64,000 bases of DNA from Chitinophagales bacterium (GTDB taxonomy: Bacteria > Bacteroidota > Bacteroidia > Chitinophagales > UBA8649): the NCBI GenBank assembly GCA_020635995.1, contig JACJYS010000001.1, positions 370,191 through 434,190 on the forward strand, read 5' to 3'. The translations under genes and the position numbers were made by a program. The number at the start of each line of letters is the position of its first letter. The first letter of the stretch is position 1. This document shows, in pieces, positions 11,972 to 53,891 of the stretch. The notes beneath the pieces are model-generated. The model saw only the letters and a list, made by a program, of their open reading frames with translations. It ran no database searches and was not told the DNA's origin.

Positions 11972-11973
11972 TG

Positions 11974-12342
11974 TTAAAGTAATTTTTCTAAGTAAAAACC
12001 AAGGGCTATAGCACCTACAGAAAGCAATATTGAAAGTAAAATATAAACAATATTAAGTATTAAATATTGTGTGTTTAAAGTATATATTTCTAATGCAAAA
12101 GTTGAAAAAGTTGAAAAAGCACCGCAAAAACCTATTAACAAAAAATATCTCAGCCAATGATTTTCTGGAAACTTAGAAAGTAATAATGCCGAAAAAAAGC
12201 CAAGCACTAAAGAGGCTAAAACATTTACTAAAAAAGTGGATTTAGGGAAATTTACACCATCAAAAGGAAATAAAACATTAAACATATATCTTAACAAACT
12301 TCCTGCTGCTCCGCCTAATGCAACATAAATGAGTTTAAGCAT
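11974..12342 (-). CDS. crcB: fluoride channel CrcB/FluC
   Basis: 122 aa with four hydrophobic helices. 'GGAAGSLLRY' N-terminus and 'GFCGAFSTFSTF' motif. Confidence 0.85.
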   Translation of the reverse strand: MLKLIYVALGGAAGSLLRYMFNVLFPFDGVNFPKSTFLVNVLASLVLGFFSALLLSKFPENHWLRYFLLIGFCGAFSTFSTFALEIYTLNTQYLILNIVYILLSILLSVGAIALGFYLEKLL

Positions 12343-13417
12343 TTTCGTGTCGTTTTTTTCCTATATTATAAACCACTTGCATTATACCAAAAACTAAAAA
12401 GAAGTATGCGTAAGATAAAATAGTTGTAGTAAAAGTCCACGGAATAATGCCAACATAAAGCAAACAAGCTAAAACTCCCGAAAGAATACCAATACTAATT
12501 AAAATAAGTGCTGTTTGTTTTTCTGTAAACCCAAAAAAAACTAATTGATGTGTTGTGTGGTCTTTTCCTCCTACAAAAGGAGATTGTTTTCGCATTAGTC
12601 TTCTTACGGTTACCGTTAGTGTATCCATTAGTGGAACGGTAAAAATTAAAAGCGGGAGTACAAATTGTTTTAGCTGAATAATACCAGAGTAGTCAGATCT
12701 TTCCCCCCAAATAGTTAATATACTGGCTGCGGCCAAAAAAACGCCTAAAAATTGGCTACCGGAGTCGCCCATATACATTTTTGCCGGATTCCAATTAAAG
12801 TATAAAAATCCTAATAATGCACCTATTACTCCTAAAATTAGGACAACTGATGTGGTTTCATAAGCTCCTTTTGATAAGATAAAAGAGATGCTTGCTAAAA
12901 TGGTTAATGATGCAGTTGTAGTTATAGCATCCATATTATCTAACATATTAATAGAGTTCATGAGCCCTACTACCCAAAGTGTAGTTATAAAATAATCAAT
13001 GGCTAAATTGCCTGTTGCTTCAATATACAAATTGCCTAAAATTAAAATAAAAGCACAGGTAAATTGCCCTATAAACTTTACCAAAGGATTGGTGTTATAG
13101 GCATCATCTGCTAAGCCTATTATAAAACCTACAGTAGTGGCTACAATAATGGCTATTAATTTTTGGTTGTAAAATAAATTATCAGTATTGCTTGGTAAAA
13201 ATCCGGCAATGGATACCGAAAGTAAAAAAACTAAGAAAAAAGCTATGCCTCCTAAAGCGGGTTTTTCTTGAGCCGCCCATCTAACTTGTTGGTTATCAGA
13301 GTTTTTATTTCTTATTCCTAAATTTTTAGAAAATTTTAATAAAATCCAGTTTAGCACTAAAGAAATAGCCGTAGAAAAAACAAGGGCAAAAACAAATACT
13401 GAAATCATTTTCTCCAC
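12335..13417 (-). CDS. polyprenyl-phosphate HexNAc-1-phosphate transferase (MraY/WecA/WbpL family), initiating enzyme
   Basis: Polytopic, 360 aa. 'GLADDAYN', 'NSINMLDNMD' and 'MGDSGSQFLG' are motifs of the family. Confidence 0.8.
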   Translation of the reverse strand: MEKMISVFVFALVFSTAISLVLNWILLKFSKNLGIRNKNSDNQQVRWAAQEKPALGGIAFFLVFLLSVSIAGFLPSNTDNLFYNQKLIAIIVATTVGFIIGLADDAYNTNPLVKFIGQFTCAFILILGNLYIEATGNLAIDYFITTLWVVGLMNSINMLDNMDAITTTASLTILASISFILSKGAYETTSVVLILGVIGALLGFLYFNWNPAKMYMGDSGSQFLGVFLAAASILTIWGERSDYSGIIQLKQFVLPLLIFTVPLMDTLTVTVRRLMRKQSPFVGGKDHTTHQLVFFGFTEKQTALILISIGILSGVLACLLYVGIIPWTFTTTILSYAYFFLVFGIMQVVYNIGKKRHENA

Positions 13418-15823: not shown

Positions 15824-16630
15824 TTACTTTAAGTTTTTAACAAGTAATACTACTGTAGTTAACGATGTAATTAAGGCTAAAAAAGGTGTTATTTCTTTTA
15901 AGAAATTTTGAGCGACCCTCAATCTTTGCTCTATATATATAACATCATTAGTTTGAACTATCAAATCTGCATTTTTTAAACCTTCTAATGTAGATAGGTC
16001 AACATCTATAATTTCCGGAGCTTTTAAATCTCCCCTTATAACTTTTATCTTATAAGCTTTAAGGTCTTGTCCTATTCCTCCAGATTTTGCAATGACTTCT
16101 AATAATGTTGTTGGTCCTTGGTTTAAACTAACTACAGCTCCTTCGCTACCTTTAAACACAAATGCTCTTCTGTTTTCTACTTTTAAAATAGCATAAGGAT
16201 CATTAAATAAAGAACTACTTCTTTCTTCAATATAGTTTTCTAATTCGTTTTCGGTTTTGCCTAAAACATAAGTTCTACCAAACAAAGGCAGTTCTACATA
16301 TCCATCTTGCTCAACTAAATAAGAAGGTATCCTATTCTGATTTTGACTACCGCCTCCTCCTTGTACTCCAAGTTGCCCACTTACGCCTCCTCCTGTTTCG
16401 TTGGGTAGTACGTCTATTAAGTCAAAACCTTCTCTTGAATATATTTGTAAGGAAAGCAAATCGCCTTTTTCTATAGTATATTGCTCTATTGCTTGCCTTC
16501 CTACGCTAAAATATTCATAGTTCCCTTGCTTAAACATTCTATTAGGATACATTAATTTACAGGAATTTAATCCAAATAATAAAAATGCTATAAATAAAGG
16601 AATTATAAACGTGTTAGTTATCTTTTTCAT
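15824..16630 (-). CDS. wza: polysaccharide export outer-membrane lipoprotein (Wza-like)
   Basis: Lipobox 'GLNSC'. Poly_export-type 'YTIEKGDLLSLQIY' and SLBB-like 'VIRGD...DLIVQTNDVIYI'. Contains a Gly-rich insert 'GGGVSGQLGVQGGGGSQ'. ATG at 16630 preferred to the TTG at 16633. Confidence 0.8.
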   Translation of the reverse strand: MKKITNTFIIPLFIAFLLFGLNSCKLMYPNRMFKQGNYEYFSVGRQAIEQYTIEKGDLLSLQIYSREGFDLIDVLPNETGGGVSGQLGVQGGGGSQNQNRIPSYLVEQDGYVELPLFGRTYVLGKTENELENYIEERSSSLFNDPYAILKVENRRAFVFKGSEGAVVSLNQGPTTLLEVIAKSGGIGQDLKAYKIKVIRGDLKAPEIIDVDLSTLEGLKNADLIVQTNDVIYIEQRLRVAQNFLKEITPFLALITSLTTVVLLVKNLK

Positions 16631-16670
16631 CAAAATGAAATAGTCTTTAAAGCACGAATATAGTTATTTC

Positions 16671-17908: not shown

Positions 17909-19237
17909 ATGATTATAAAAGACATAATAGTATCTATAGGTTATTTTGTAATTATCATAATAGTTGCAAATCTAATTAAAAAACACTTTATAAAAGAAAA
18001 GTTAAAAAAACATTTTATTTACGGATTATACTTGAAACTTTTAGGGGCAATTTTCACGTATATAATTTATTTTTTTTACTACGGGACTGGAGATACCGTT
18101 TATTATTTTAAACGATCAGAATATATTAAATTTATTTTAAGCAATAATTTTAATCTTGGATTAAAATTACTCTTTAAAAATCCTCAAGTCTATGATCCCG
18201 AAACATACGGAATATTTATAGGTCTTCGGGCGTTTGATGCAAGTTCATACATCGTTGTTAAAATTGTTACTATCTTTAATTTATTCTGTTTTGGTAGCTA
18301 CCCTGCTATAGCACTATGCTTTGCCAGTCTTTCCTTTTTTGGCATATGGAAGTTATTTAATGTTATTTATGAAACTTACCCAGAGCACATAAAGGTTTTA
18401 TCTATATCATTCTTATATTTACCTTCGTTAATCTTTTGGGGATCTGGTATTTTTAAAGATACAATAACTATGGGGTTTTTAAGTCTTTTAGTATCATATT
18501 TTATTCAGTTTATTTTCTTTAAAAAAATAACTATTAGAGGTATATTTTTTTGTTTTATTTCTGTTTACATTATAGGGGTCATTAAAAGTTATATAATAAT
18601 AGCTATAATTCCTGCTTTAATGTTCTTGCTATTTCTTAGTTTAAGAAATAAAATATCAAATTCAATTATAAAGAATTTATCTACTCCAATCTTTATCATT
18701 GCTATTATTTCAATAAGCTTAATAAGTTTAAATATTTTGAGTTCAGTATTTACTAAATTTAATATAAACAATTTAGAGGATAGAGCTAGTGATATGCAAC
18801 GGTGGCACACATATAAAGTTGAGGTACTACAAGGAGGAGACGGCTCTGCATATTCGTTAGGGCAAATAGACTATACTCCGATAGGTATAATTAAAAAAAT
18901 ACCATTGGCAATAAATGTTGCACTTTTTAGACCATACTTATGGGAGGTTTCTAATCCTCTCATGCTTTTATCTTCCTTTGAAAGTTTATTTTTTTTAATA
19001 CAAACGTTATTTTTTTTATATTATGCAGTAAGATCTCTTGGTAAATTATTTAACATTTTAAATAACAATTCCATTATCGTTTTTATGATGTTATTTTCAT
19101 TAATTTTTGCTTTTGCAGTTGGTTTTACAAGTTATAATTTTGGAGCTCTTTCAAGGTATAGAATACCTTTACTACCGTTTTATATTTCTAGTATTATGAT
19201 TTTAACTGAAAAATTAAAAAGTCTTAAACAAAAATAG
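17909..19237 (+). CDS. polytopic membrane protein, candidate Wzy-type repeat-unit polymerase
   Basis: 442 aa with about 10 or more hydrophobic helices. One large hydrophilic loop 'NNLEDRASDMQRWHTYKVEVLQGGDGSAYSLGQIDY'. No family motif recognised. Assignment rests on context only. Confidence 0.4.
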   Translation: MIIKDIIVSIGYFVIIIIVANLIKKHFIKEKLKKHFIYGLYLKLLGAIFTYIIYFFYYGTGDTVYYFKRSEYIKFILSNNFNLGLKLLFKNPQVYDPETYGIFIGLRAFDASSYIVVKIVTIFNLFCFGSYPAIALCFASLSFFGIWKLFNVIYETYPEHIKVLSISFLYLPSLIFWGSGIFKDTITMGFLSLLVSYFIQFIFFKKITIRGIFFCFISVYIIGVIKSYIIIAIIPALMFLLFLSLRNKISNSIIKNLSTPIFIIAIISISLISLNILSSVFTKFNINNLEDRASDMQRWHTYKVEVLQGGDGSAYSLGQIDYTPIGIIKKIPLAINVALFRPYLWEVSNPLMLLSSFESLFFLIQTLFFLYYAVRSLGKLFNILNNNSIIVFMMLFSLIFAFAVGFTSYNFGALSRYRIPLLPFYISSIMILTEKLKSLKQK

Positions 19238-23393: not shown

Positions 23394-23463
23394 GCTTAGT
23401 TAATTGAAAGGTAAAAGTAATTAAAATATAAAAGACCAAGAAACATGTAGCTAAAAGTTATTG

Positions 23464-25329: not shown

Positions 25330-25332
25330 TTA

Positions 25333-29919: not shown

Positions 29920-30774
29920 TTATTTAAGAGTTTCTAAAGTAAATAGTGTAGCTCCATACTTATTTAAATGTTCATTATCTGCAAACATTGTATCATTTAA
30001 TATAAAATTAGTAAAATCAAATAATTTTGCCTCAGAAAATTTTATGTTTTTCAACTCATAATAGCTATTCTTTGTATTTTCACTCACCTGCTTTTCCCAT
30101 TCATAAATAGGTGTTGCTATAAGATTAATTTTCACATCGTTTTCTACACAATATCTATATATTTCATTGAGATAATTTATTTGTAAGTCCGAATACTCTC
30201 CATTGTCTACAAAAGTAAATTGTAATTCTTTTCGTCTTTTGTTTTGCAATGCTTTATATCCACCCCATTCTAAGTCTGATATGTTTTTATTTTTAAGTAT
30301 TCTTAAAGCATTATGCTTAATATATTCTGGAATTGAAGCAATAAATTCTTTTGGATTTAAACTAAAAACTTTTATCAACTCTTGATTATTCATTTCCATT
30401 AAATATTTGGATACCTTATAGTTAACGTATTGATCTTCATAATACCACTTATTTTGATATTTTAAAATATTAAAGTATGAGTATGATAAAAATACTGTTT
30501 TAATTTCAGGGTTATTTTCTATTAACTTTCTAAGTTTTATAAATGTATATAAATAATTATCTCCGCTTTGAGCATAATTTACAGCATTAGAAATTAAGGT
30601 GTCATTTATGGCACATTCTACATGTGAATCTCCAACAAATAAGGTATTAATATTCTCGGGTATTTTATAAACACTATCTTGTACAGGATAATATTTAACA
30701 GCTAAAAATAAAGAAAGGAAAAGTATAAATACAAACAAGCTAAAATATATGGTATGTTTTAGAAACTTTTTCAT
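29920..30774 (-). CDS. membrane-anchored SGNH/DltD/AlgJ-like protein, probable O-acetyltransferase partner of the MBOAT
   Basis: N-terminal TM anchor. Block I 'FVGDSH' and C-terminal 'DNEHLN' (DxxH). Lies immediately downstream of the MBOAT gene. Confidence 0.55.
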   Translation of the reverse strand: MKKFLKHTIYFSLFVFILFLSLFLAVKYYPVQDSVYKIPENINTLFVGDSHVECAINDTLISNAVNYAQSGDNYLYTFIKLRKLIENNPEIKTVFLSYSYFNILKYQNKWYYEDQYVNYKVSKYLMEMNNQELIKVFSLNPKEFIASIPEYIKHNALRILKNKNISDLEWGGYKALQNKRRKELQFTFVDNGEYSDLQINYLNEIYRYCVENDVKINLIATPIYEWEKQVSENTKNSYYELKNIKFSEAKLFDFTNFILNDTMFADNEHLNKYGATLFTLETLK

Positions 30775-30777
30775 TAT

Positions 30778-32214
30778 TTAAAATTGAAAATAAATAAATT
30801 CTTGTTGTTTTCCTGCAAAAAAAGCAATTAGAAAAATTAATATCAAATATAAACTCCATCGTAAAACAGAGGGAAGTTTAAAATATCTCAATTCTAAACC
30901 AAACAACGATTTTCTGTTAAGCCATTCTAAAAGCAACAAAACACCTACAAATAAAAGTGTTTTAACAGGAAGTATTGATGGCATTGAAAAGAGTTTTAAA
31001 GAAAATAATCTCGTAGTATATTCCATGCCTATTGACACGCTATCTGCCCTAAAAAATATCCAAGCTATAATTGTTAAAAAAAATGTTAGCAATATTTGTA
31101 GTCCCTCTTTAAAAGTTGGCAAAAAAGAAGATGATGCCACTATATCTATATTACTTCTATTTTTATTAAATATCAATAAGGGCAAAAAATAAAAAGCGTT
31201 AAGTGCACCCCATACAACAAATGTCCAATTTGCCCCGTGCCAAAATCCACTAACTAAAAATATAATAAATGTATTTCTAATTTTTTTACCCATTCCACCT
31301 CTACTTCCCCCTAAAGGAATGTATAAATAATCTTTAAACCAAGAGGATAAAGAAATATGCCAACGTCTCCAAAACTCGGCAATATCTCTTGAAAAATATG
31401 GAAAAGCAAAATTTTGCATTAAACTAAATCCAAAAAACCTGGCTGTTCCTATGGCAATATCCGAATAACCAGAAAAATCACCATAAATCTGAAAAGCAAA
31501 CAGTATTGCCCCTAATAACAAAGTGCTCGGTTCTTGAGAGGAATAATTATTAAATATTTGGTTAACGTATGTGGCACAGTTATCTGCTACCACCACTTTT
31601 TTAAATAAGCCCCACAATATCTGCCTTAAACCTAATACAGATGAATAGTAATCAAATTTCCTGTTTTTATAGAATTGAGGAAGAAGATTTTGTGCCCGCT
31701 CTATGGGACCCGCTACTAGTTGAGGGAAAAAACTAACATAAGCAAAAAATGAAACTACATCTTCAGCCGGCTTCATTTGCTTTCTATAAATATCAATAGA
31801 ATAACTTAATGTTTGAAAAGTATAGAAACTAATTCCTACAGGTAAAATTATGTGTAGCGGAGCTACGTCAATAGGATGTCCTAAAAAAGTGAAAACATCA
31901 TTGAAACTGTGTATAAAAAAATTGAAATACTTAAAGAAGCCCAAAAGTCCTAAATTAACAATCAAACTTATAGACAATAATATTTTTCTTTCCCCCTGTT
32001 CTTCAACTTTAACAAGTTGATTTCCTACCCAATAATCAACAAAGGAGCTTATGGCTATTAAAGATAAAAACTTCCAGTCCCACATGCCGTAAAAAAAGTA
32101 GCTGACTACTAATAAAAAGAAATTTTGGAGTTTTAGGTTTTTATTAAAAACAAACCAATAAAGTAAAAATACTATTGGCAAGAATATAGCAAAATCAATA
32201 GAGTTAAAAAGCAT
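30778..32214 (-). CDS. MBOAT family O-acyltransferase (AlgI/DltB-like)
   Basis: Polytopic, 478 aa. 'FWRRWHISLSSWFKDYLYIPLGG' and 'SGFWHGANW' with the conserved His. Confidence 0.85.
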   Translation of the reverse strand: MLFNSIDFAIFLPIVFLLYWFVFNKNLKLQNFFLLVVSYFFYGMWDWKFLSLIAISSFVDYWVGNQLVKVEEQGERKILLSISLIVNLGLLGFFKYFNFFIHSFNDVFTFLGHPIDVAPLHIILPVGISFYTFQTLSYSIDIYRKQMKPAEDVVSFFAYVSFFPQLVAGPIERAQNLLPQFYKNRKFDYYSSVLGLRQILWGLFKKVVVADNCATYVNQIFNNYSSQEPSTLLLGAILFAFQIYGDFSGYSDIAIGTARFFGFSLMQNFAFPYFSRDIAEFWRRWHISLSSWFKDYLYIPLGGSRGGMGKKIRNTFIIFLVSGFWHGANWTFVVWGALNAFYFLPLLIFNKNRSNIDIVASSSFLPTFKEGLQILLTFFLTIIAWIFFRADSVSIGMEYTTRLFSLKLFSMPSILPVKTLLFVGVLLLLEWLNRKSLFGLELRYFKLPSVLRWSLYLILIFLIAFFAGKQQEFIYFQF

Positions 32215-32986
32215 TTCCCTTCTTTAATTTACATATAAAAAAAACGCTACTTGAATATTTGAAATTCCTTTTCATTTTAAAAAATTGAACAAAATCGGGG
32301 TAAGGATAAAAACAAGGAGTTATTATTTTTCCAATATTAAAAACGCCTCCTACAATTTTTTCCCAATTACTTATTTTATAGTGTTTAAGATCATACCATA
32401 TATACTTTGCCCTTGGTTTACTGTGAGAACCCAAAATGAATATATTTTTAATTGGATAATTAAATTTCAGCGTAATAATAGACTTTAAAAATCTATAAAT
32501 TCTAATGTGGGTTAAAAAGAAAACTTGCGAAAACAAATTAATTCCTGCCATTGCGGCTGTTGGCATTCCTATAATAAGTGTGCCATCTTGCTTGAGTACT
32601 CTTTTCATTTCCTCTAAACTTTTTTGTTCATCATTAACATGTTCTAAAACATGGGATGAATAAACCACATCAAATTGTTCGTCCTCAAATGGAAGATTTT
32701 CTGAAAAGCCTTGAAGAATTTCTGTATTTTCTGTTTTTAAACCATTATATCTTCCCACACCATGAGCCCCCGGTTCGGGATCTATCCCAACAACTTCACA
32801 TTTTCTATTGTTTTTTGCCTTCATTAAACTATAACCAGCTCCGCATCCTACGTCTAAAAATTTTGAAGCAACAGGTATATATTGCTCTATGGCTTCCCAT
32901 TCTTCATCTCTTATTATCTCTTGATATTTTTCTACTTTATCTTTTGATGAAATTGGCCAATAAATAAGATTCCCAATTAATCCCAT
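32204..32986 (-). CDS. class I SAM-dependent methyltransferase
   Basis: Motif I 'LDVGCGAGYS', 'DVVYSSHVLEHV' and 'GTLIIGMP'. Confidence 0.8.
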   Translation of the reverse strand: MGLIGNLIYWPISSKDKVEKYQEIIRDEEWEAIEQYIPVASKFLDVGCGAGYSLMKAKNNRKCEVVGIDPEPGAHGVGRYNGLKTENTEILQGFSENLPFEDEQFDVVYSSHVLEHVNDEQKSLEEMKRVLKQDGTLIIGMPTAAMAGINLFSQVFFLTHIRIYRFLKSIITLKFNYPIKNIFILGSHSKPRAKYIWYDLKHYKISNWEKIVGGVFNIGKIITPCFYPYPDFVQFFKMKRNFKYSSSVFFICKLKKGNAF

Positions 32987-33867
32987 ACTTTTTTATTTAA
33001 CAATAGCTTGGTAAAAATAACTATTTTTTCTTTTGTCTTATAATTAGGCAACTCTATAATTGATTTAATTGTAGTTGAAATGGCTTTTGTTTTTTTGCCT
33101 TGGTAATAATAATATTTAATTATCCCAAAATTACACTGGTTAATAATTTTTTTGCACCAAGATTTACGTATAACGTTTGAATTACTGTTTTGCAATATTT
33201 GCTGCAATACCTCTTTTCTTTTAGCGTAAGCATTATATTTTTTATAATTAACGCTATTGTCTTCATGTATTTTATATAATACAGTGTGTTCATTTGTTGA
33301 AACAATTTTAGGGTACTTATTCAGTATTCTTACAAGCAACTCGGTGTCTTCAGAAATGTTAAGGTTTTCATTAAAAGGAAACTCTAATAAAATTTCTTTT
33401 TTTACGCATATTCTACTAGGAATTAAAGCATGTTCAAAAATATTGTCTAAAAGTGAAGCCTCTTTTTTTAATATATATTTATTCTTATTATTTTCATTGT
33501 TTATGCAAAGTTCAGAATAATATACTGCTTTTTTTCCTCCTGTATTTAATATGCTATTATATAACGCCTTAAGATGGTTTGGCAAATATTCATCATCACT
33601 ATCAATAAAACAGATATACTTTCCCGTAGCATTTCTTATTCCATTATTTCTAGCGGCACTTCGTTCTTGATTTTCTTGATAGATATATTTTATGCGAGAA
33701 TCTTCAAATTGAGCTACTACTTGTTGTGTGTTGTCCGTTGAGCCATCATCAACCACAATTAATTCCCAATTTGTATATGATTGGCATAAAACACTATTAA
33801 TAGCTTTTGACAACATGTTTGCCCTATTGTATGTAGGCAAAACTATAGAAAAAAACACTTTATCCAT
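32977..33867 (-). CDS. glycosyltransferase family 2
   Basis: 'SIVLPTYNR', 'VDDGSTD' and 'IDSDDE' (DxD). Confidence 0.85.
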   Translation of the reverse strand: MDKVFFSIVLPTYNRANMLSKAINSVLCQSYTNWELIVVDDGSTDNTQQVVAQFEDSRIKYIYQENQERSAARNNGIRNATGKYICFIDSDDEYLPNHLKALYNSILNTGGKKAVYYSELCINNENNKNKYILKKEASLLDNIFEHALIPSRICVKKEILLEFPFNENLNISEDTELLVRILNKYPKIVSTNEHTVLYKIHEDNSVNYKKYNAYAKRKEVLQQILQNSNSNVIRKSWCKKIINQCNFGIIKYYYYQGKKTKAISTTIKSIIELPNYKTKEKIVIFTKLLLNKKVWD

Positions 33868-34769
33868 TATTTAAAATTCAATAACATTTTTCTCCCTTTA
33901 TTATAAAATGGAAGTATTCTACTTTCAGTAAACCATAATTTTTTAATTCTACTAAGTTTTAAGTCAATTTCAATCCCTAAAGTGTTTTCTATAATATTTT
34001 TATAAAAACCTTTATCGTAAGCATTGGGGTATCTTAACGGCAACTTTTCGTATTGCCAAGATTTACTACCCCCAGTTGCATGTACAAAAAGCGGTTTCTC
34101 AAAAAAACCATATTCATGAAAAGGATTTATTGATGTAGCCGTACCTATCCAATCAGGGAAACCAAATGACAGTATTTCATCTGTTTCCATATTTTGTAAA
34201 ACTAAATTTAATATATCTTGGTCTGCAAGAGGAAATTCATAACAGCATTTAAAATACTTTCCTGGCTCAATAAAATCATTAATATAAGTATCCCATTCTT
34301 TAAGATTTGTTTTATGCTTACTAAACAACCCAGCTACAAATCCGCCACTATAATAATAATTTGATTTTGGATTACTATTTATCTTTGCTTTGTCATTCCA
34401 AATTCTTCTGCGAATATCACTACTGGGGAGTATGCCTTCATTTGAAACTATTAATTTTTGATGTTTTTCTAATGAGTTGTTTATGATTTTAAAAAAATTT
34501 GTATTTAAAATCACAATATCTGGGTCTAAGTATATAAATTTATCTGAAGGATTATCAAGTATAATTTTTGCTTTTAAACAGCCAAAAATATGATTAGTGT
34601 GAATTATTTTTTGATACACATTCTCTAAATGATTCAATTCTTCAATTTCTTTATTCGTAGCTACATATATTTTTCCTTTAAAATTACACTTAGCTATACT
34701 ATTTAATAAAGCAAACAATCCATATTTATAGTTGCCCGTGCATACTGTGTAAATTGATAATTCTTCCAT
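33867..34769 (-). CDS. GT8-like nucleotide-diphospho-sugar transferase (putative)
   Basis: 'YLDPDIVIL' (DxD), 'SGGFVAG' and 'DQDILN' resemble the three GT8 motifs. No TM segment. Confidence 0.5.
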   Translation of the reverse strand: MEELSIYTVCTGNYKYGLFALLNSIAKCNFKGKIYVATNKEIEELNHLENVYQKIIHTNHIFGCLKAKIILDNPSDKFIYLDPDIVILNTNFFKIINNSLEKHQKLIVSNEGILPSSDIRRRIWNDKAKINSNPKSNYYYSGGFVAGLFSKHKTNLKEWDTYINDFIEPGKYFKCCYEFPLADQDILNLVLQNMETDEILSFGFPDWIGTATSINPFHEYGFFEKPLFVHATGGSKSWQYEKLPLRYPNAYDKGFYKNIIENTLGIEIDLKLSRIKKLWFTESRILPFYNKGRKMLLNFK

Positions 34770-34774
34770 AAATA

Positions 34775-35656
34775 TTACAGATTTCCAATGTAATTTTTCA
34801 AACTATTTTTATAGTCTATCTTCATAATTCTTTTTAGTTTGGAGTCATCAAATATAGTATCTCCAGATTCTAATTTCAAAAAACTTTCTTTCCAAGGCAC
34901 AAAACAAATTTCAGCGTTATACTTTATAGAAATCATTTCTGCAAGACTTTTTAAACTTATGTTATCATTACTACCAATGTTATAAATTTCATTTTTTGTT
35001 GACTCAATTAGTGAAGCTTCTGTCATTATTTTACATATATCTTCAACGTGTGTAAATGTTCTATAAATTTCACCATTTCCAAAAAGTGTTATTTTTTTAT
35101 CTTTTTTTGCTTGATTTGTTAAAAATCCCATTGTCCCATAAGAATATTTGTTTTCTATAATGTGTCCATACGGAACACATATTCTATATATAGTATAATT
35201 TAATCCATAATAATTACTCCATGAGTTTATTACATTTTCTGCAAACAATTTATTAGCCGCATAAATAGTTTTTGTTTCTTTTTGGTCATTTTCTTTTAAA
35301 GGTGTTTTTTCAATACCCTTATAAATAAGTCTTGTAGAAGGATATACAAACCTTCCACTAAATCCTTGTTTTATAATTTCTTGTAATGTTTTTAGCAAAA
35401 GTATTTCGTTTGATTTAATATATTCCTCATATTCGTCAAATCCATCTATAGTTCCTGTTTTTCCAGCCATAAAAAATATTAAATCTGCTGAGTTAAAATT
35501 TATTTGTTTTATCTCATTACTGTCAAAAAAATTTATTTTTGAACGTCTATCATAGCTATCAACATCACCCCCCATTTTTCTTAAGTAAAATTCTAAATTA
35601 GAACCAATGTATCCACTCCCACCTATCACAATTGCTTTTTTGTTATAGGACTTCAT
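34775..35656 (-). CDS. NAD(P)-dependent extended SDR, candidate NDP-4-keto-sugar reductase
   Basis: 'VIGGSGYIGSNL' Rossmann motif and catalytic 'YAANKLF'. 293 aa. Last gene of the three-gene deoxysugar set. Confidence 0.65.
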   Translation of the reverse strand: MKSYNKKAIVIGGSGYIGSNLEFYLRKMGGDVDSYDRRSKINFFDSNEIKQINFNSADLIFFMAGKTGTIDGFDEYEEYIKSNEILLLKTLQEIIKQGFSGRFVYPSTRLIYKGIEKTPLKENDQKETKTIYAANKLFAENVINSWSNYYGLNYTIYRICVPYGHIIENKYSYGTMGFLTNQAKKDKKITLFGNGEIYRTFTHVEDICKIMTEASLIESTKNEIYNIGSNDNISLKSLAEMISIKYNAEICFVPWKESFLKLESGDTIFDDSKLKRIMKIDYKNSLKNYIGNL

Positions 35657-36617
35657 TTATAATGCTTTTTGTTAATATTTCATTTTGTAAAAAACTTTGA
35701 TTCTTGATTTCATCAATCGCCTCATTAAATTTTTTATCAATTATTTCATCATAAAAAGAATTTAAAATATTATTGAAATGATTGTCTGAGTTTAAACTAA
35801 GTTGTTCAATTTTATTATCTGTTTCTATAGTTATACTTGGTTTTACTCCTAGTCCCGCAGTAAAACTTCTATCAGTAGTTACTTTTCCTTTTGTGCCTAA
35901 AATTTCAATTTGACATTGATAAAAATTATCAAATCCCCAAGTTAGATGTATTGGGATATTTTGAGAAGATAAAAAATGAGCACTTCCTGTTATATCTACT
36001 CCCTTGTTGTTTACATTCATTGTGCTAGATAAGTGTTTTATTCCTTTTCCTAAAACCATTTGTGCTGCTTTTATTGGATATGCCCCTGCATCTAATAAAG
36101 CACCTCCGCCAAGTTCTTTACTATATCTAAAATTATTGTTGTTTAAAGGGGGGAAACAGAATGAAGATCTAAAACTTCTGATGTTTCCAATAGTCTTATT
36201 TTCTATTAAGTTTAGTAAATATTTACTTTGTGAATGGTATGGGAACATAAAATTTTCCTTAACCACACATTTTTTTTGCTTTGCTTTATCTAATATTTTT
36301 TTAGTAACAAAATAATTAGGGGCAAAAGATTTCTCTACATAAATATGTTTTCTTTTTTCTAAGCAATTTAAAATCCACTCTTCATGAAGTCCTGTTGGGA
36401 GGGGCATATATACCGCATCAATTTCTTCATTTAATAAATTTTCGTAACCAACTATGGGTTTTACATTAAACAAAGATGCAAATTCATTAGCCTTTAACTC
36501 ACTTCTACTAGCTACCGCTACTAAGTTAAAATTTTGATTACTTATAATTGTAGGTATTACTGACCTTTTAGCAATATTAGCACATCCCATCACTCCTATG
36601 TTAATTTTTTCTCTCAT
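35643..36617 (-). CDS. Gfo/Idh/MocA oxidoreductase, candidate NDP-hexose 3-ketoreductase
   Basis: 'IGVMGCANIAKR' Rossmann motif and 'YVEKSFA' (EKP-type motif). Directly downstream of the 2,3-dehydratase. Confidence 0.65.
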   Translation of the reverse strand: MREKINIGVMGCANIAKRSVIPTIISNQNFNLVAVASRSELKANEFASLFNVKPIVGYENLLNEEIDAVYMPLPTGLHEEWILNCLEKRKHIYVEKSFAPNYFVTKKILDKAKQKKCVVKENFMFPYHSQSKYLLNLIENKTIGNIRSFRSSFCFPPLNNNNFRYSKELGGGALLDAGAYPIKAAQMVLGKGIKHLSSTMNVNNKGVDITGSAHFLSSQNIPIHLTWGFDNFYQCQIEILGTKGKVTTDRSFTAGLGVKPSITIETDNKIEQLSLNSDNHFNNILNSFYDEIIDKKFNEAIDEIKNQSFLQNEILTKSIINEVL

Positions 36618-36618
36618 T

Positions 36619-38034
36619 TTATTTAATAGATAATACTGACAATAAGCTACGAGCTTCTATATTTACATTGTTACTATATTCCATAAATTTCAATAGTTGA
36701 TTTAGTGTCATCCACTTATAGTTAGTATGTTCCTCTATCTTAACATTTTCATCTATTTTCACTATCATGTTCCTATTCTGATTTTCAAAAAAACGACCAC
36801 CTTCTTCAGAAAGCATTACGTCATGCATAATATTTTCCTTTTTTGCGTTCAAAACTAAATCCAGATACTTTACTTCGTATTCATTTTCTCCTTTTCTAAA
36901 ATTTCCAGTTATACATTGAACCGTTGGTGCAAGCTCAACGATATCTAAATTTCCTATCTCCAGTTTTGCTTGTACTAAAAAATGTAGGATTCCATCAATT
37001 TCTTTACATATAAAAGCTACAATTCCTTCATTAATTGGCTTAATAATAGGTTGAGTCCAATTAGCAACTTCTCTATTTTCTATTTTAACATCAACAGCTA
37101 TAACTTCAAAATATTTATTGTTTTTATGATAAATGCTATTGTTTGAAATTATCCAATCCTTTACATCGTTTAAAGGAATCAAATTAACTTTTAAATCATA
37201 ATTGCTTTTTAACTCTGTTAGCCAAGAATGTATTTGGTTCAAAGTGTAAAGCGATTTTTCCTTATTAAGAATAGACAAAAAAACTTTTCTGTTAAAATCA
37301 TTTTTATCTTGAGTTACAACAATGTTAATCAATGAGCAAATATCGTTGTTAAAACTTCCATAATTCAATCCTGATATTACAGTTCTAGTATCCATATTAA
37401 CAAGGTTGTCATAAGTCAAAAGTTCCTTTATTTGGCTTAATGTAACCCACATAAAATCTTCAAACACTTCTATATCTTCATCAATTTTAAGTATGATATT
37501 CCTATTTCTCTTTCTATAAAAACGGGCACCTTGCTCTGATTGAAGTTGGTCAATAATAACTTCTCCTTTTCGCTCTTTGAAATAATTCAAATATGTTGGC
37601 TCTTTCCCTTTATGTACTTTTGTGAAATTACTCCTTGTGGCTTGTATTGTTGGAGAAAGTTGAACTTTATTTACATTCCCTGGTTCAATTTTAGCCTGAA
37701 TTAAAAAATGTAATACACCATTAAATTCCTTTGTCAAAAAACCCAAATAACCAATCTCTGGTTGGTTAATTATTGGTTGCGACCATGTCTTACAGTTTTC
37801 TTGTTTTATTTCAATGTTTACACCTTCTATGGTGAAAAATTTTCCTGAATTATGTTCAATATTTCCTGTTTGTTTACTAATGTACCAATTTTTGAGTTCA
37901 GAAAAATTTATTTGAGAAATATTTACTTTAACTTCTTCATTTCTTTCTTTAACCCACGCTATAATTTCTTCAGTTTTGTGTAAATAGGTATCACTAATGG
38001 CAGAATGTAATATGTCAATATTGTGTTTATTCAT
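36619..38034 (-). CDS. NDP-hexose 2,3-dehydratase (EvaA/TylX3-type)
   Basis: 471 aa with two homologous halves. First: 'GKFFTIEGVNIE..WSQPIINQPEIGYLGFLTKEFNGVLHFLIQAKIEPGN'. Second: 'NKYFEVIAVDVKI..WTQPIIKPINEGIVAFICKEIDGILHFLVQAKLEIGN'. This matches the duplicated-domain layout of the family. Confidence 0.75.
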   Translation of the reverse strand: MNKHNIDILHSAISDTYLHKTEEIIAWVKERNEEVKVNISQINFSELKNWYISKQTGNIEHNSGKFFTIEGVNIEIKQENCKTWSQPIINQPEIGYLGFLTKEFNGVLHFLIQAKIEPGNVNKVQLSPTIQATRSNFTKVHKGKEPTYLNYFKERKGEVIIDQLQSEQGARFYRKRNRNIILKIDEDIEVFEDFMWVTLSQIKELLTYDNLVNMDTRTVISGLNYGSFNNDICSLINIVVTQDKNDFNRKVFLSILNKEKSLYTLNQIHSWLTELKSNYDLKVNLIPLNDVKDWIISNNSIYHKNNKYFEVIAVDVKIENREVANWTQPIIKPINEGIVAFICKEIDGILHFLVQAKLEIGNLDIVELAPTVQCITGNFRKGENEYEVKYLDLVLNAKKENIMHDVMLSEEGGRFFENQNRNMIVKIDENVKIEEHTNYKWMTLNQLLKFMEYSNNVNIEARSLLSVLSIK

Positions 38035-39814
38035 TATGTTTCTTAGAAATTAGTTCTTTGTATGTAAATCTATTTACTATCTCACCATCTTTCATTTCTA
38101 ATATTAAATCACATTTCTTTAAAGTTGATATTCTGTGGGCTATCATTATTAAAGTTATGTTTTGAAAATCAATATTATAAATAGTATTCATAACATCCTC
38201 TTCTGTTTTATCATCTAAAGCACTAGTTGCTTCATCTAAAACTATAATTTTTGCATTATAATAAAGTGCTCTTGCTATAGCAATTCTTTGTTTTTGTCCT
38301 CCAGATATTTTTGCGCCAAACTCACCAATGTTAGTTTTCATACCCAATTCACTACTATTTACCAATTCATTCAACTTTACTTTTTTTATGATTTCACTTA
38401 CTTTACCATAATCAATTTCATTTTCTTTTTCACCAAATGCTATATTCTCTGCTATGGTTCCATCAAGCATAAAATAATCTTGTCTTACATATGAAATATT
38501 TTTTCTGTACAATATTATGTTTTTACTATTAACAAGTGTGCCATCTATTCTAATCTTTCCTTCTGTAGGCTCTAACAGCCCTAATATTATTTTGCTTAAT
38601 GTTGTTTTTCCAGAACCCGACTCTCCTATAAAGCCTATTTTAATGCCTTTGGGTATCTCTAAATCTATTTGTTTTAAAACTTTATTTCCTACCCCCTTAT
38701 TATAACTAAATGACAAATTAGACAACACAATACTTCTTTCAAAGGGTAAAGATTCAAGTTTTTTATATTTACTATTTTTTAGTGATTTTTCTATTTCTTT
38801 TGACGGGGGGAACAAGTGGTCAAATATATAGTTAGAGTTATTTATTACCATATTAGCTGAAATAATCTTATTTGTTGAGGGAAGCACTTTGTATGCTGCC
38901 GTTGAAAATAGAACAAGCAGACTTATAAAATTACCTTCCATAAAAAATATAGTGTAAAAAAACAATAAGGACAAAGAAAGAATTGCAATAAATTCAACTA
39001 TTTTAGTTGGTATTGTTTGAAATAATTTTAACAACAATATTTGGTGATAAAAATGCTTTAGATAGCCTATAACTTTCTCTACAAAATATTTTTTTTTTTC
39101 GTACATAACTACGTCTACATATCCATGTATACTTTCATAGAAACTTTTATATGTTAATGGTTGAACCTTGTTTTTTTTCTCACCTATCTCTTTTAGTTTG
39201 TTTTTAGTGCTTTTTGTTGTTATATATACAATAGGTACTATTGTTATTGACAAGAAAATTATTACTTTTAAATTCACAAAAAGTAAGGAAATTAATATAA
39301 ACAACAACACGAACAATTCATTGAAGATTATTGAATATGATTGTAATCTAGCGGTAACATAATCGTATGGAATAACGTAAACATCTCTAACAATGTGATT
39401 TGAATCTGTATTTAAAAAATAGGTGTATTTTTTATTTAATGCTTTTATATACTCATGTTCGGTAATCTGCACAGCTATTTTATTTAAAAATAAATTTTGA
39501 AAATAGGTTAATAAAACTACTAAAATATTCTTAATCAAAAACAAAATCACTAAAATAATAATTATAATGTTTGCTATCTTCTGAGGACTTTCCTTTGGAA
39601 AAAAACCTATTACTAATGCAAACCTATCCTCAGTCCCTAAATCATAATATTTGCTAAATATGTAAATCATCAAAATTATCATAAACAATCCAAACAACTC
39701 TAACATACCTATAGAAATAGAACATATAAAACTATAGATACTTAATTTTAAGTTTCTTCTATTTAATAGAGATAAAGTTTTGGACAAAGAGCTAAAAAAA
39801 GACAAATTAAGCAT
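38027..39814 (-). CDS. fused ABC exporter (TMD+NBD, MsbA/PglK-like)
   Basis: Six N-terminal helices. Walker A 'GESGSGKTT', signature 'ISGGQKQRIAIARAL', Walker B 'IIVLDEATSALD'. Confidence 0.85.
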   Translation of the reverse strand: MLNLSFFSSLSKTLSLLNRRNLKLSIYSFICSISIGMLELFGLFMIILMIYIFSKYYDLGTEDRFALVIGFFPKESPQKIANIIIIILVILFLIKNILVVLLTYFQNLFLNKIAVQITEHEYIKALNKKYTYFLNTDSNHIVRDVYVIPYDYVTARLQSYSIIFNELFVLLFILISLLFVNLKVIIFLSITIVPIVYITTKSTKNKLKEIGEKKNKVQPLTYKSFYESIHGYVDVVMYEKKKYFVEKVIGYLKHFYHQILLLKLFQTIPTKIVEFIAILSLSLLFFYTIFFMEGNFISLLVLFSTAAYKVLPSTNKIISANMVINNSNYIFDHLFPPSKEIEKSLKNSKYKKLESLPFERSIVLSNLSFSYNKGVGNKVLKQIDLEIPKGIKIGFIGESGSGKTTLSKIILGLLEPTEGKIRIDGTLVNSKNIILYRKNISYVRQDYFMLDGTIAENIAFGEKENEIDYGKVSEIIKKVKLNELVNSSELGMKTNIGEFGAKISGGQKQRIAIARALYYNAKIIVLDEATSALDDKTEEDVMNTIYNIDFQNITLIMIAHRISTLKKCDLILEMKDGEIVNRFTYKELISKKHNE

Positions 39815-39836: not shown

Positions 39837-39869
39837 CAAAACTAAGTAAATAGTTTTTACGAAAACAAA
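39837..39869 (-). promoter_or_regulatory. candidate -33 (TTTG) / -7 (TAGTTTTG) promoter of the ABC-deoxysugar-glycosyltransferase operon
   Basis: Minus strand: TTTG at 39869-39866, a 21-nt spacer, then TAGTTTTG at 39844-39837. The -7 box ends 22 nt before the ATG at 39814. Confidence 0.45.
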
Positions 39870-39916
39870 AAACTACTTAAAATATGTGTTATATTTATGC
39901 TTTAGATTGTATTCCC

Positions 39917-53883: not shown

Positions 53884-53891
53884 TAGAATTA

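What the first reader, a model, noticed from the sequence alone, without database searches (positions are those of the whole stretch)
34775..38034. Predicted NDP-2,6-dideoxyhexose branch (2,3-dehydratase + 3-ketoreductase + 4-ketoreductase) inside a Wza/Wzc polysaccharide locus
Seen: three overlapping or abutting minus-strand genes. The first is a 471-aa protein with two homologous halves carrying the EvaA/TylX3-type pattern. The second is a Gfo/Idh/MocA oxidoreductase ('YVEKSFA'). The third is an extended SDR ('GGSGYIGSNL', 'YAANK'). Established: NDP-hexose 2,3-dehydratases have a duplicated-domain (bi-Nudix) fold. They act on dTDP-4-keto-6-deoxyglucose in 2,6-dideoxysugar pathways. The following 3-ketoreductase can be a Gfo/Idh/MocA enzyme (KijD10, SpnN), and an SDR 4-ketoreductase finishes the sugar. 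These pathways are best known from actinomycete antibiotics, not cell-surface glycans. Inference: this organism puts a 2,6-dideoxyhexose (olivose- or digitoxose-like) into an exopolysaccharide or glycolipid. The rmlA and rmlB genes for the substrate are not in this window.
Basis: partly seen in the sequence, partly recalled or inferred. Interest (0 to 1): 0.6.

Follow-up and report, generated by a model that had tools for sequence, protein, structure and literature searches.

The report
Predicted 2,6-dideoxy-sugar genes in polysaccharide operon
Three adjacent genes in an uncultured Bacteroidota bacterium very likely make a rare 2,6-dideoxy sugar for a cell-surface glycan, but the same gene set is common in related bacteria, so this is a sound annotation and not a discovery.

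Summary
Three intact minus-strand genes lie at exactly 36619-38034, 35643-36617 and 34775-35656.

- **471-aa protein:** an NDP-hexose 2,3-dehydratase (PF03559, 520 bits; EvaA E=1e-111). It is internally duplicated and keeps both catalytic glutamates.
- **324-aa protein:** a KijD10-type sugar 3-ketoreductase (E=9e-53). The Lys and Tyr matching KijD10 K102/Y186 are invariant in 68/68 sequences.
- **293-aa protein:** an extended SDR with an intact S-Y-K triad and no characterised orthologue. Its 4-ketoreductase role is inferred. In 53 related loci it and a C-4 aminotransferase are almost mutually exclusive partners of the first two genes (23 vs 23, 2 with both; p=1e-9).

The trio sits in a tightly coupled operon with an ABC exporter, glycosyltransferases, methyltransferases and an O-acyltransferase, upstream of Wza/Wzc. 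The window has no rmlA or rmlB.

Novelty is low. At least 559 species-representative genomes, mostly Bacteroidota, carry this dehydratase subfamily. It is already annotated in public databases. Tannerella forsythia, also Bacteroidota, has digitoxose in its protein O-glycan.

The sugar's stereochemistry and its final destination remain untested.

The parts
39837..39869 (-). Candidate Bacteroidota-type promoter (TTTG-N21-TAGTTTTG) in the 69-bp gap upstream of the operon's first gene
   Evidence: Sequence read. The pattern has 8 matches in the window against 3.3 expected, so it is weak evidence on its own. The consensus itself is recalled from my own knowledge.
38027..39814 (-). Fused TMD-NBD ABC exporter (PglK/MsbA-like), first gene of the operon, overlapping the dehydratase start by 8 nt. 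Candidate flippase or exporter for the lipid-linked glycan.
   Evidence: ABC_tran 113 bits. MsbA 262 bits and PglK 257 bits, both below their equivalog cutoffs.
36619..38034 (-). NDP-hexose 2,3-dehydratase (EvaA/TylX3/KijB1 family, duplicated Nudix-like halves)
   Evidence: PF03559 520 bits with 2 stretches. EvaA 4j7g E=1.2e-111. The halves are 36% identical, E=3e-47. E117 and E167 correspond to the EvaA catalytic E139 and E190 and are invariant in 21 homologues.
35643..36617 (-). KijD10-type NDP-3,4-diketo-2,6-dideoxyhexose 3-ketoreductase (Gfo/Idh/MocA)
   Evidence: PF01408 and PF22725. KijD10 3rbv E=8.7e-53 against 1e-27 for the next structure. K96 and Y180 correspond to KijD10 K102 and Y186 and are invariant in 68/68 sequences. 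An orthologue lies immediately downstream of the dehydratase in 65 of 79 loci.
34775..35656 (-). Extended SDR, inferred NDP-4-keto-2,6-dideoxyhexose 4-ketoreductase
   Evidence: PF01370 103 bits. No equivalog and no close solved structure. G12, G15, S107, Y132 and K136 are invariant in 34/34 sequences, and an invariant Arg sits where RmlB has Asp-Glu. It is syntenic with the dehydratase-ketoreductase pair and mutually exclusive with a C-4 aminotransferase.
33867..34769 (-). GT8-like glycosyltransferase directly downstream. Candidate transferase for the dideoxy sugar (speculative).
   Evidence: Glyco_transf_8 31 bits. An orthologue (52% identity) occupies the same position only in L004.
32977..33867 (-). 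GT2 glycosyltransferase
   Evidence: PF00535 126 bits.
32204..32986 (-). SAM-dependent methyltransferase (possible sugar O-methylation)
   Evidence: Methyltransf_11 84 bits.
30778..32214 (-). MBOAT membrane O-acyltransferase (probable glycan O-acetylation)
   Evidence: PF03062 96.5 bits. Six hydrophobic segments.
29920..30774 (-). 284-aa protein of unknown family with one N-terminal hydrophobic segment. Possible periplasmic partner of the MBOAT.
   Evidence: No family at 1e-3. Only a faint SGNH hit. Hydrophobic-segment count.
17909..19237 (+). 442-aa polytopic membrane protein, Wzy-like polymerase candidate
   Evidence: No family hit. Ten hydrophobic segments.
15824..16633 (-). Wza-type outer-membrane polysaccharide export protein
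   Evidence: Poly_export and SLBB_2.
13405..15822 (-). Wzc-type co-polymerase / tyrosine kinase
   Evidence: Wzz, GNVR and AAA_31.
12335..13417 (-). WecA/MraY-family initiating phosphoglycosyl transferase
   Evidence: PF00953 93.6 bits. Nine hydrophobic segments.

Best explanation
The three genes encode the last three steps of a nucleotide-activated 2,6-dideoxyhexose pathway. RmlA and RmlB, encoded elsewhere in the genome, would make dTDP-4-keto-6-deoxy-D-glucose. The 471-aa EvaA-type enzyme removes the C-2 hydroxyl, giving dTDP-3,4-diketo-2,6-dideoxyglucose. The KijD10-type enzyme reduces the C-3 ketone, with K96 acting as the acid. The SDR reduces the remaining C-4 ketone. If the 3-ketoreductase has KijD10's stereochemistry (equatorial 3-OH), and given that no epimerase is encoded here, the product is dTDP-D-olivose or dTDP-D-oliose. 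The genes are translationally coupled to an ABC exporter, glycosyltransferases, a methyltransferase and an O-acyltransferase. One of the downstream transferases therefore probably adds the sugar to a lipid-linked cell-surface glycan, most simply the polysaccharide exported by the Wza/Wzc machinery of the same locus. What is shown: family membership, catalytic residues and synteny. What is inferred: the SDR's reaction, the dTDP substrate, the stereochemistry and the acceptor glycan.
For: Dehydratase: PF03559 520 bits, EvaA E=1.2e-111, catalytic Glu pair conserved and invariant, internal duplication. Ketoreductase: KijD10 is the best solved match by 25 orders of magnitude. The K102 and Y186 equivalents are invariant in 68/68 sequences. 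An orthologue lies at +1 from the dehydratase in 65/79 loci. SDR: intact Rossmann motif and S-Y-K triad, with no dehydratase Asp-Glu pair. Orthologues (36-48% identity) flank the pair in about 30 loci from several phyla. In the 53 loci with full flanks, 23 have the ketoreductase plus the SDR only, 23 have the ketoreductase plus a DesI-like aminotransferase only, and 2 have both (Fisher p=1.1e-9). A PglD-like N-acetyltransferase occurs only with the aminotransferase, 9 of 9. dTDP substrate: a true RmlA (503 bits against a 361 cutoff) occurs near the cassette in 8-9 loci, and a true RmlB (473 against 365) in 4 loci. Operon: eight genes from the ABC exporter to the MBOAT are separated by 5 nt or less, or overlap. 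Surface-glycan context: Wza, Wzc and WecA-like genes are in the locus. The same cassette sits in a capsule-type locus with an EpsG polymerase in Bacteroides heparinolyticus. Precedent: digitoxose is present in the T. forsythia O-glycan. Stereochemical logic comes from the digitoxose review.
Against: The SDR matches no characterised 4-ketoreductase. Its best solved relatives are generic epimerases, dehydratases and reductases at about 1e-27 even with a profile, and no NCBIfam equivalog is reached. rmlA and rmlB are absent from the window, and the rest of the genome is unavailable. The glycosyltransferase next to the cassette is not conserved across loci, so the transfer step is unassigned. The mutual-exclusivity statistic is not corrected for shared ancestry, and the loci are the 80 best-scoring of at least 559. 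No Wzx flippase was detected. Two plus-strand genes also interrupt the 27-kb region, so the operon holding the trio and the Wza/Wzc genes might serve two different glycans. No chemistry has been done.
Confidence: 0.75

Rival explanations
1. The pathway assignment is right, but the sugar goes to a different glycoconjugate. That could be a protein O-glycan of the Bacteroidota general glycosylation system, or a lipo-oligosaccharide or glycolipid flipped by the PglK/MsbA-like ABC exporter. It would not be the Wza/Wzc-exported polysaccharide. The region would then hold two adjacent glycan loci.
For: The only chemically proven Bacteroidota 2,6-dideoxyhexose is in a protein O-glycan. The trio is translationally coupled to a PglK-like ABC exporter and lies 19 kb from Wza/Wzc. 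Two plus-strand genes (27620-28798 and 17909-19237) break the gene array. No Wzx was found. The gene content (AsnB-like, methyltransferases, many glycosyltransferases) resembles the T. forsythia O-glycosylation cluster.
Against: All other genes between 12335 and 39814 are on the same strand, and the region has uniformly low GC. In B. heparinolyticus the cassette lies in a capsule-type locus with an EpsG polymerase. Characterised Bacteroidota O-glycosylation loci start with wzx, not with an ABC exporter.
Confidence: 0.25
2. The SDR is not the pathway's 4-ketoreductase. It acts on another nucleotide sugar used by the neighbouring transferases, for example as a 4-epimerase. The 4-keto-2,6-dideoxy intermediate is then finished by an enzyme encoded elsewhere.
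For: The best solved relatives are annotated as epimerases. No equivalog is reached. The SDR is absent from about half of the dehydratase-ketoreductase loci.
Against: Where the SDR is absent, a C-4 aminotransferase takes its place (23 vs 23, 2 with both). This is what one expects if both enzymes consume the same C-4 ketone. The SDR overlaps the ketoreductase gene by 14 nt. It stays attached to the pair in both gene orders and in several phyla.
Confidence: 0.12
3. The product is an L-series or axial-3-OH sugar (L- or D-digitoxose, or boivinose). This would require either that the SDR is a bifunctional epimerase/reductase like GDP-fucose synthase, or that this ketoreductase delivers hydride to the opposite face from KijD10.
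For: The SDR has weak hits to GDP-L-fucose synthase (48 bits; PDB 1e6u). The one known Bacteroidota example is digitoxose. Stereochemistry cannot be read from about 35-40% identity to KijD10.
Against: No Cys or His is invariant among 34 SDR orthologues, so the Fcl-type acid/base pair is missing. No RmlC-like cupin is found among the locus ORFs. In the characterised D-digitoxose pathway the 3-ketoreductase is EryBII and not an OleW/KijD10-type enzyme. That EryBII belongs to a different enzyme family (aldo-keto reductases) is from my own knowledge.
Confidence: 0.15
4. The cassette glycosylates a small-molecule secondary metabolite, as in actinomycetes, and only happens to lie next to polysaccharide genes.
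For: All biochemically characterised members of these two enzyme families come from antibiotic pathways.
Against: The window has no PKS, NRPS or terpene genes. The only ketosynthase is a housekeeping FabF 20 kb away. The operon partners are polysaccharide-type transferases and an exporter. Neighbours in 79 related loci are Wzx, GT2, RmlA and acetyltransferases.
Confidence: 0.03

Closest known systems
EvaA (Amycolatopsis orientalis) and the TylX3/OleV/KijB1/SpnO family of dTDP-4-keto-6-deoxyglucose 2,3-dehydratases
   Same: Same length (471 aa), the same two Nudix-like halves, and full-length alignment at E=1e-111. The catalytic Glu pair of pocket A is conserved.
   Different: The host is Bacteroidota, not an actinomycete. 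The gene is embedded in a polysaccharide operon, not an antibiotic cluster. Activity and nucleotide specificity are untested.
KijD10 (Actinomadura kijaniata), C-3 ketoreductase of the dTDP-L-digitoxose pathway
   Same: Gfo/Idh/MocA fold. It is by far the best solved match (E=9e-53). The K102 and Y186 equivalents are invariant. It is coupled to a 2,3-dehydratase.
   Different: In kijanimicin biosynthesis a 5-epimerase (KijD11) follows, giving an L-sugar. No epimerase is encoded here. The stereochemistry of this enzyme's product is unknown.
Actinomycete dTDP-D-olivose / dTDP-D-digitoxose five-step pathways (RmlA, RmlB, 2,3-dehydratase, 3-ketoreductase, 4-ketoreductase)
   Same: The same three-enzyme logic after RmlB, and the same families for the first two of those enzymes.
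   Different: The 4-ketoreductase here belongs to an uncharacterised extended-SDR subfamily. rmlA and rmlB are not clustered with the trio. The acceptor is a surface glycan, not an aglycone.
Digitoxose in the Tannerella forsythia S-layer / general protein O-glycan
   Same: The same phylum, and a 2,6-dideoxyhexose on a cell-surface glycoconjugate.
   Different: That sugar is the ribo isomer and is attached to protein. In the papers I could read, its biosynthetic genes and its transferase are not assigned. I could not determine whether T. forsythia carries this cassette.
Sister cassette in other Bacteroidota and Proteobacteria: 2,3-dehydratase + KijD10-like reductase + DesI-like C-4 aminotransferase (± PglD-like N-acetyltransferase)
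   Same: The same first two genes in the same order, in the same kinds of polysaccharide loci.
   Different: The third enzyme transaminates C-4 and does not reduce it. The predicted product is a 4-amino or 4-acetamido-2,4,6-trideoxyhexose. That variant is absent from this window.

Membership tests
NDP-hexose 2,3-dehydratase (Pfam PF03559, EvaA type) | Family HMM match above the curated cutoff | tested here: met
   520 bits against a cutoff of 25.
NDP-hexose 2,3-dehydratase (Pfam PF03559, EvaA type) | Two tandem homologous Nudix-like domains in one chain | tested here: met
   Two HMM stretches. Both EvaA domains align. The halves are 36% identical, E=3e-47.
NDP-hexose 2,3-dehydratase (Pfam PF03559, EvaA type) | Catalytic glutamates of pocket A (EvaA E139 and E190) | tested here: met
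   E117 (AKIEPGN) and E167 (LQSEQG) align to them. Both are invariant in 21 homologues.
NDP-hexose 2,3-dehydratase (Pfam PF03559, EvaA type) | C-2 deoxygenation of dTDP-4-keto-6-deoxyglucose | not testable with these tools
   Needs an enzyme assay.
KijD10-type sugar 3-ketoreductase (Gfo/Idh/MocA) | Gfo/Idh/MocA N- and C-terminal domains | tested here: met
   PF01408 66 bits and PF22725 66 bits.
KijD10-type sugar 3-ketoreductase (Gfo/Idh/MocA) | Specific relationship to KijD10 and not to other Gfo/Idh/MocA enzymes | tested here: met
   KijD10 E=8.7e-53 against 1e-27 for the next structure. No inositol, xylose or UDP-GlcNAc dehydrogenase equivalog is reached.
KijD10-type sugar 3-ketoreductase (Gfo/Idh/MocA) | Catalytic Lys 102 and Tyr 186 | tested here: met
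   K96 and Y180 align to them. K102 was located through the K-to-E variant chain 3rcb, and its role is confirmed. Both residues are invariant in 68/68 sequences.
KijD10-type sugar 3-ketoreductase (Gfo/Idh/MocA) | Genetic coupling to a 2,3-dehydratase | tested here: met
   Immediately downstream in 65 of 79 loci.
KijD10-type sugar 3-ketoreductase (Gfo/Idh/MocA) | Equatorial 3-OH product | not testable with these tools
   Needs product NMR.
NDP-4-ketohexose 4-ketoreductase (extended SDR) | Rossmann GxxGxxG motif and Ser/Thr-Tyr-Lys triad | tested here: met
   G12, G15, S107, Y132 and K136 are invariant in 34/34 sequences.
NDP-4-ketohexose 4-ketoreductase (extended SDR) | Lacks the Asp-Glu pair of 4,6-dehydratases | tested here: met
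   The motif is S-[T/S]-R-L with an invariant Arg. No TDEVYG-type motif occurs anywhere in the window.
NDP-4-ketohexose 4-ketoreductase (extended SDR) | Orthology to a biochemically characterised 4-ketoreductase | tested here: inconclusive
   No NCBIfam equivalog is reached. A profile search finds only generic extended SDRs at about 1e-27. Sequences of UrdR, EryBIV and KijC2 were not available for comparison.
NDP-4-ketohexose 4-ketoreductase (extended SDR) | Acts on the C-4 ketone left by the 3-ketoreductase (comparative evidence) | tested here: met
   Mutually exclusive with a DesI-like C-4 aminotransferase: 23 vs 23, 2 with both, Fisher p=1.1e-9. Not corrected for phylogeny.
Complete dTDP-2,6-dideoxyhexose pathway | RmlA and RmlB available to supply the substrate | tested here: not met
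   Absent from the 64-kb window. The rest of the genome could not be examined. Both are present near the cassette in some related loci.
Wzx/Wzy-dependent Wza-Wzc polysaccharide locus | Wza, Wzc and an initiating phosphoglycosyl transferase | tested here: met
   Poly_export; Wzz+GNVR+P-loop; PF00953.
Wzx/Wzy-dependent Wza-Wzc polysaccharide locus | Wzx flippase and Wzy polymerase | tested here: inconclusive
   No Wzx-family hit in any locus ORF. A 10-segment membrane protein (17909-19237) could be Wzy. A PglK-like ABC exporter is present where a Wzx would be expected.

The most novel reading that the evidence does not exclude
This cassette, and its aminotransferase-containing sister, is the general and so far unassigned genetic basis for 2-deoxy sugars in Gram-negative surface glycans. 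That would include the digitoxose of the Tannerella forsythia O-glycan. Such sugars would then be far more common in Bacteroidota capsules and glycoproteins than the structural literature suggests. A likely reason for the gap is that 2-deoxyglycosides are acid-labile and are lost in standard hydrolysis-based composition analysis (the acid-lability point is from my own knowledge).
Probability: 0.3. Interest if true: 0.55.

Novelty: new member of a known kind. Interest (0 to 1): 0.3.

Why it matters
For this window alone, the result is a confident functional annotation. An uncultured Bacteroidota bacterium probably decorates a surface glycan with a 2,6-dideoxyhexose, possibly methylated or acetylated.

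The wider point is modest but real. Reviews still describe 2,3-dehydratases as enzymes of antibiotic pathways, yet this subfamily is widespread in polysaccharide loci of Bacteroidota and other Gram-negative phyla. It is very abundant in host-associated Bacteroidales metagenome sequences.

It comes in two clean variants, a reductase and an aminotransferase, which predict two sugar classes. Linking the cassette to real glycan structures would fill a gap in bacterial glycobiology. It would also supply non-actinomycete enzymes for glycodiversification.

Tried and rejected
1. The first scan of the species-representative genomes with the single protein found nothing, because the peptide patterns were too specific. 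An alignment-derived scan worked.

2. I tried to learn whether Tannerella forsythia carries the cassette by searching with the Bacteroides heparinolyticus dehydratase. The 120 listed hits were all unnamed metagenome proteins at 86-100% identity, so the question stays open.

3. I read T. forsythia and Bacteroidota O-glycosylation papers looking for assigned digitoxose biosynthesis genes. None was found.

4. Taxonomic placement through PurH homologues failed, because organism names were truncated in both outputs. Only the phylum is supported, by a T9SS sorting domain in the neighbouring gene and by the taxonomy of the dehydratase relatives.

5. Neighbour cluster C10 looked like RmlB but is a TviC-like epimerase. 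True RmlB genes were then found through the TDEVYG motif.

6. The window SDR at 22428-23393 was considered as a possible RmlB and rejected: 158 bits against a 365 cutoff, and no TDE motif.

7. A profile of SDR orthologues searched against solved structures gave no specific functional relative.

8. The Aeromonas O-antigen paper that matched '3-dehydratase' concerns a different enzyme class.

9. A literature search for olivose or digitoxose in LPS, CPS or EPS found essentially only the T. forsythia work.

10. I did not run structure prediction. The fold is not in question, and it would not settle the reaction or the stereochemistry.

Full report
**Observation.** The quoted motifs are present. 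The junctions are a 1-nt gap and a 14-nt overlap, and the upstream ABC-transporter gene overlaps the first gene by 8 nt. From the ABC gene (38027-39814) down to the MBOAT gene (30778-32214), eight genes are separated by 5 nt or less, or overlap. This is one tightly coupled operon. A TTTG-N21-TAGTTTTG motif lies in the 69-bp gap upstream of the ABC gene. It resembles the Bacteroidota promoter consensus as I recall it. The pattern occurs 8 times in the window against 3.3 expected, so it is only suggestive.

**The 2,3-dehydratase.** The 471-aa protein scores 520 bits on Pfam PF03559 (cutoff 25) in two stretches. It aligns over both halves with the only solved member, EvaA (4j7g, E=1.2e-111). Its two halves are 36% identical over 209 residues (E=3e-47), which confirms the internal duplication. 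A 2022 review states that mutating EvaA E139 and E190 in pocket A abolishes activity (PMC8987622). In the alignment these are E117 (AKIEPGN) and E167 (LQSEQG) of the window protein. Both are invariant in an alignment of 21 homologues. Membership is met on every testable criterion.

**The 3-ketoreductase.** The 324-aa protein has both Gfo/Idh/MocA domains. Its best solved relative is the sugar 3-ketoreductase KijD10 (3rbv, E=8.7e-53), and the next structure scores 1e-27. The K102E variant chain (3rcb) identifies the catalytic lysine in the alignment, and it corresponds to K96 in YVEKSFA. The same numbering offset places Y186 at Y180 in GAYPIK. A digitoxose review confirms that Lys 102 is the proton donor (PMC11167396). 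Both residues are invariant in the window protein and 67 syntenic orthologues.

**The SDR.** The 293-aa protein is an extended SDR (PF01370, 103 bits). It reaches no NCBIfam equivalog and has no close solved relative, either as a single sequence (best 3.7e-14) or as a 22-sequence profile (best about 1e-27, generic epimerases, dehydratases and reductases). Its role therefore cannot be read from homology. What the sequence does show is:
- an invariant Gly-rich motif and an invariant S107/Y132/K136 triad;
- an invariant Arg where 4,6-dehydratases carry Asp-Glu;
- no invariant Cys or His that could serve as an epimerase acid/base pair.

**Comparative genomics.** I analysed the best 80 loci. They are mostly Bacteroidota. 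They also include Verrucomicrobiota, Desulfobacterota, Alpha-, Beta- and Gammaproteobacteria, Ignavibacteria and Bacillota/Izimaplasma MAGs.
- The KijD10-like gene lies immediately downstream of the dehydratase in 65 of 79 loci.
- The next position is filled either by an orthologue of the SDR or by a DegT/DesI-like aminotransferase.
- Among the 53 loci with enough flanking sequence, 23 have the SDR only, 23 have the aminotransferase only, and 2 have both (Fisher p=1.1e-9).
- A PglD-like N-acetyltransferase accompanies only the aminotransferase (9 of 9).

The simplest reading is that both enzymes consume the C-4 ketone left by the 3-ketoreductase. That supports the 4-ketoreductase assignment. 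The caveat is that the test is not corrected for phylogeny and uses only the best-scoring loci.

A true RmlA (TIGR01207, 503 bits against 361) lies near the cassette in 8-9 loci. A true RmlB (TIGR01181, 473 against 365) lies near it in 4 loci. This supports a dTDP-glucose origin.

**What the window lacks.** tblastn with those RmlA, RmlB and aminotransferase proteins finds no counterpart in the window, and no 4,6-dehydratase motif is present. The SDR at 22428-23393 is TviC/GalE-like and not RmlB. The flanks are housekeeping genes: tyrS, purN, purH, mreBC, PBP2, rodA and fabF. No RmlC-like epimerase is found among the locus ORFs.

**Locus and organism.** The trio sits in a low-GC (26-29%) region. 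Besides the PglK/MsbA-like ABC exporter, the region holds:
- GT8-like, GT2 and several GT4 glycosyltransferases;
- two methyltransferases;
- an MBOAT O-acyltransferase;
- an AsnB-like amidotransferase;
- a second Gfo/Idh/MocA enzyme;
- Wza, Wzc and a WecA-like initiating transferase.

No Wzx was detected. A 442-aa protein with ten hydrophobic segments could be the polymerase.

The divergently transcribed 1143-aa PKD-repeat protein ends in a T9SS sorting domain (46 bits against a cutoff of 27), which points to Bacteroidota. Exact copies of the dehydratase occur only on three metagenome contigs. Attempts to place the organism more precisely failed.

**Mechanism proposed.** RmlA and RmlB, encoded elsewhere, give dTDP-4-keto-6-deoxyglucose. 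The dehydratase gives the 3,4-diketo-2,6-dideoxy intermediate. The KijD10-type reductase gives the 4-keto-2,6-dideoxy sugar. The SDR gives the finished dTDP-2,6-dideoxyhexose.

The review states that D-digitoxose needs an axial 3-OH, made by a different reductase (EryBII), whereas the KijD10/OleW route gives an equatorial 3-OH and needs an epimerase to reach L-digitoxose. With a KijD10-type enzyme and no epimerase, D-olivose or D-oliose is the most likely product. This is an inference and not a result.

**Comparison with what is known.** Three facts lower the novelty:
- The dehydratase is already annotated as 'NDP-hexose 2,3-dehydratase' or 'oxidase EvaA' in many Bacteroidota genomes.
- It is abundant. 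More than 7,000 proteins scored E≤1e-50 against the Bacteroides heparinolyticus copy, and the 120 best are all ≥86% identical and come from metagenome assemblies.
- The Tannerella forsythia protein O-glycan contains β-digitoxose, identified by NMR (PMC4030854, PMC5378307, PMC6120980).

The papers I could read do not assign the genes that make that sugar. They also state that the glycosyltransferases for the core of the glycan, where the sugar sits, are unknown. I could not test whether T. forsythia has this cassette. In B. heparinolyticus the cassette lies in a capsule-type locus with GT2 genes and an EpsG-family polymerase.

**Verdict.** This is a new member of a known kind. The open points are the SDR's reaction (inferred from context), the stereochemistry, and which glycan receives the sugar. 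The most interesting by-product concerns the wider gene family, not this window: the cassette exists in two clean variants, one with a reductase and one with an aminotransferase.

Noticed in passing
Loci L004-L083 (e.g. L037:12379-13473, L033:7884-8588): About half of the related loci replace the SDR with a DesI-like C-4 aminotransferase, often together with a PglD-like N-acetyltransferase. This predicts a 4-amino or 4-acetamido-2,4,6-trideoxyhexose in many Bacteroidota and other Gram-negative polysaccharide loci. The two variants are almost mutually exclusive.
   Followed up: partly
window 38027-39814 (-): A PglK/MsbA-like fused ABC exporter is the first gene of the operon and overlaps the dehydratase gene by 8 nt. 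No Wzx flippase is detectable in the whole locus. In 13 related loci a Wzx-like gene occupies this upstream position instead.
   Followed up: partly
window 22428-26301 (-): A second sugar-modifying module: a TviC-like UDP-sugar 4-epimerase-type SDR (22428-23393), an AsnB-like glutamine amidotransferase (23464-25329) and a second Gfo/Idh/MocA oxidoreductase (25333-26301). This suggests an amidated or oxidised amino-uronic acid in the same glycan. AsnB-like genes also recur near the cassette in several related loci (L006, L008, L010, L028, L046).
   Followed up: no
window 29920-32214 (-): An MBOAT O-acyltransferase is followed by a 284-aa protein with one N-terminal hydrophobic segment and no family assignment (only a faint SGNH hit). 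It looks like a two-component glycan O-acetylation module. An MBOAT orthologue (59% identity) lies next to the cassette in L009.
   Followed up: no
window 52597-56749 (-): Three consecutive large ORFs (428, 457 and 494 aa) have no NCBIfam family. One has a weak PMT_2 (dolichyl-phosphate-mannose transferase-like) hit. They may be membrane glycosyltransferases of unknown function.
   Followed up: no
window 39884-43315 (+): A 1143-aa PKD-repeat protein with a T9SS C-terminal sorting domain is transcribed divergently from the polysaccharide operon. I used it only as a marker for the phylum.
   Followed up: partly
L070 (Bacteroides heparinolyticus DSM 23917) and proteins P0121-P0240: The Bacteroides heparinolyticus version of the dehydratase has more than 120 protein clusters at 86-100% identity in metagenome assemblies. 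Some are seen on dozens of contigs, so the cassette appears to be common in these metagenomes. In the isolate it lies in a capsule-type locus with NeuB-like, transketolase-like, GT2 and EpsG genes.
   Followed up: partly
window 14000-40000: GC content drops to 26-29% across the polysaccharide region, against 32-37% in the flanking housekeeping genes. This is typical of horizontally exchanged glycan loci.
   Followed up: no
window 11108-12342 (-): A CrcB fluoride channel gene and an endonuclease/exonuclease/phosphatase-family gene lie between the WecA-like transferase and the PPIase genes. They probably mark the end of the glycan locus.
   Followed up: no
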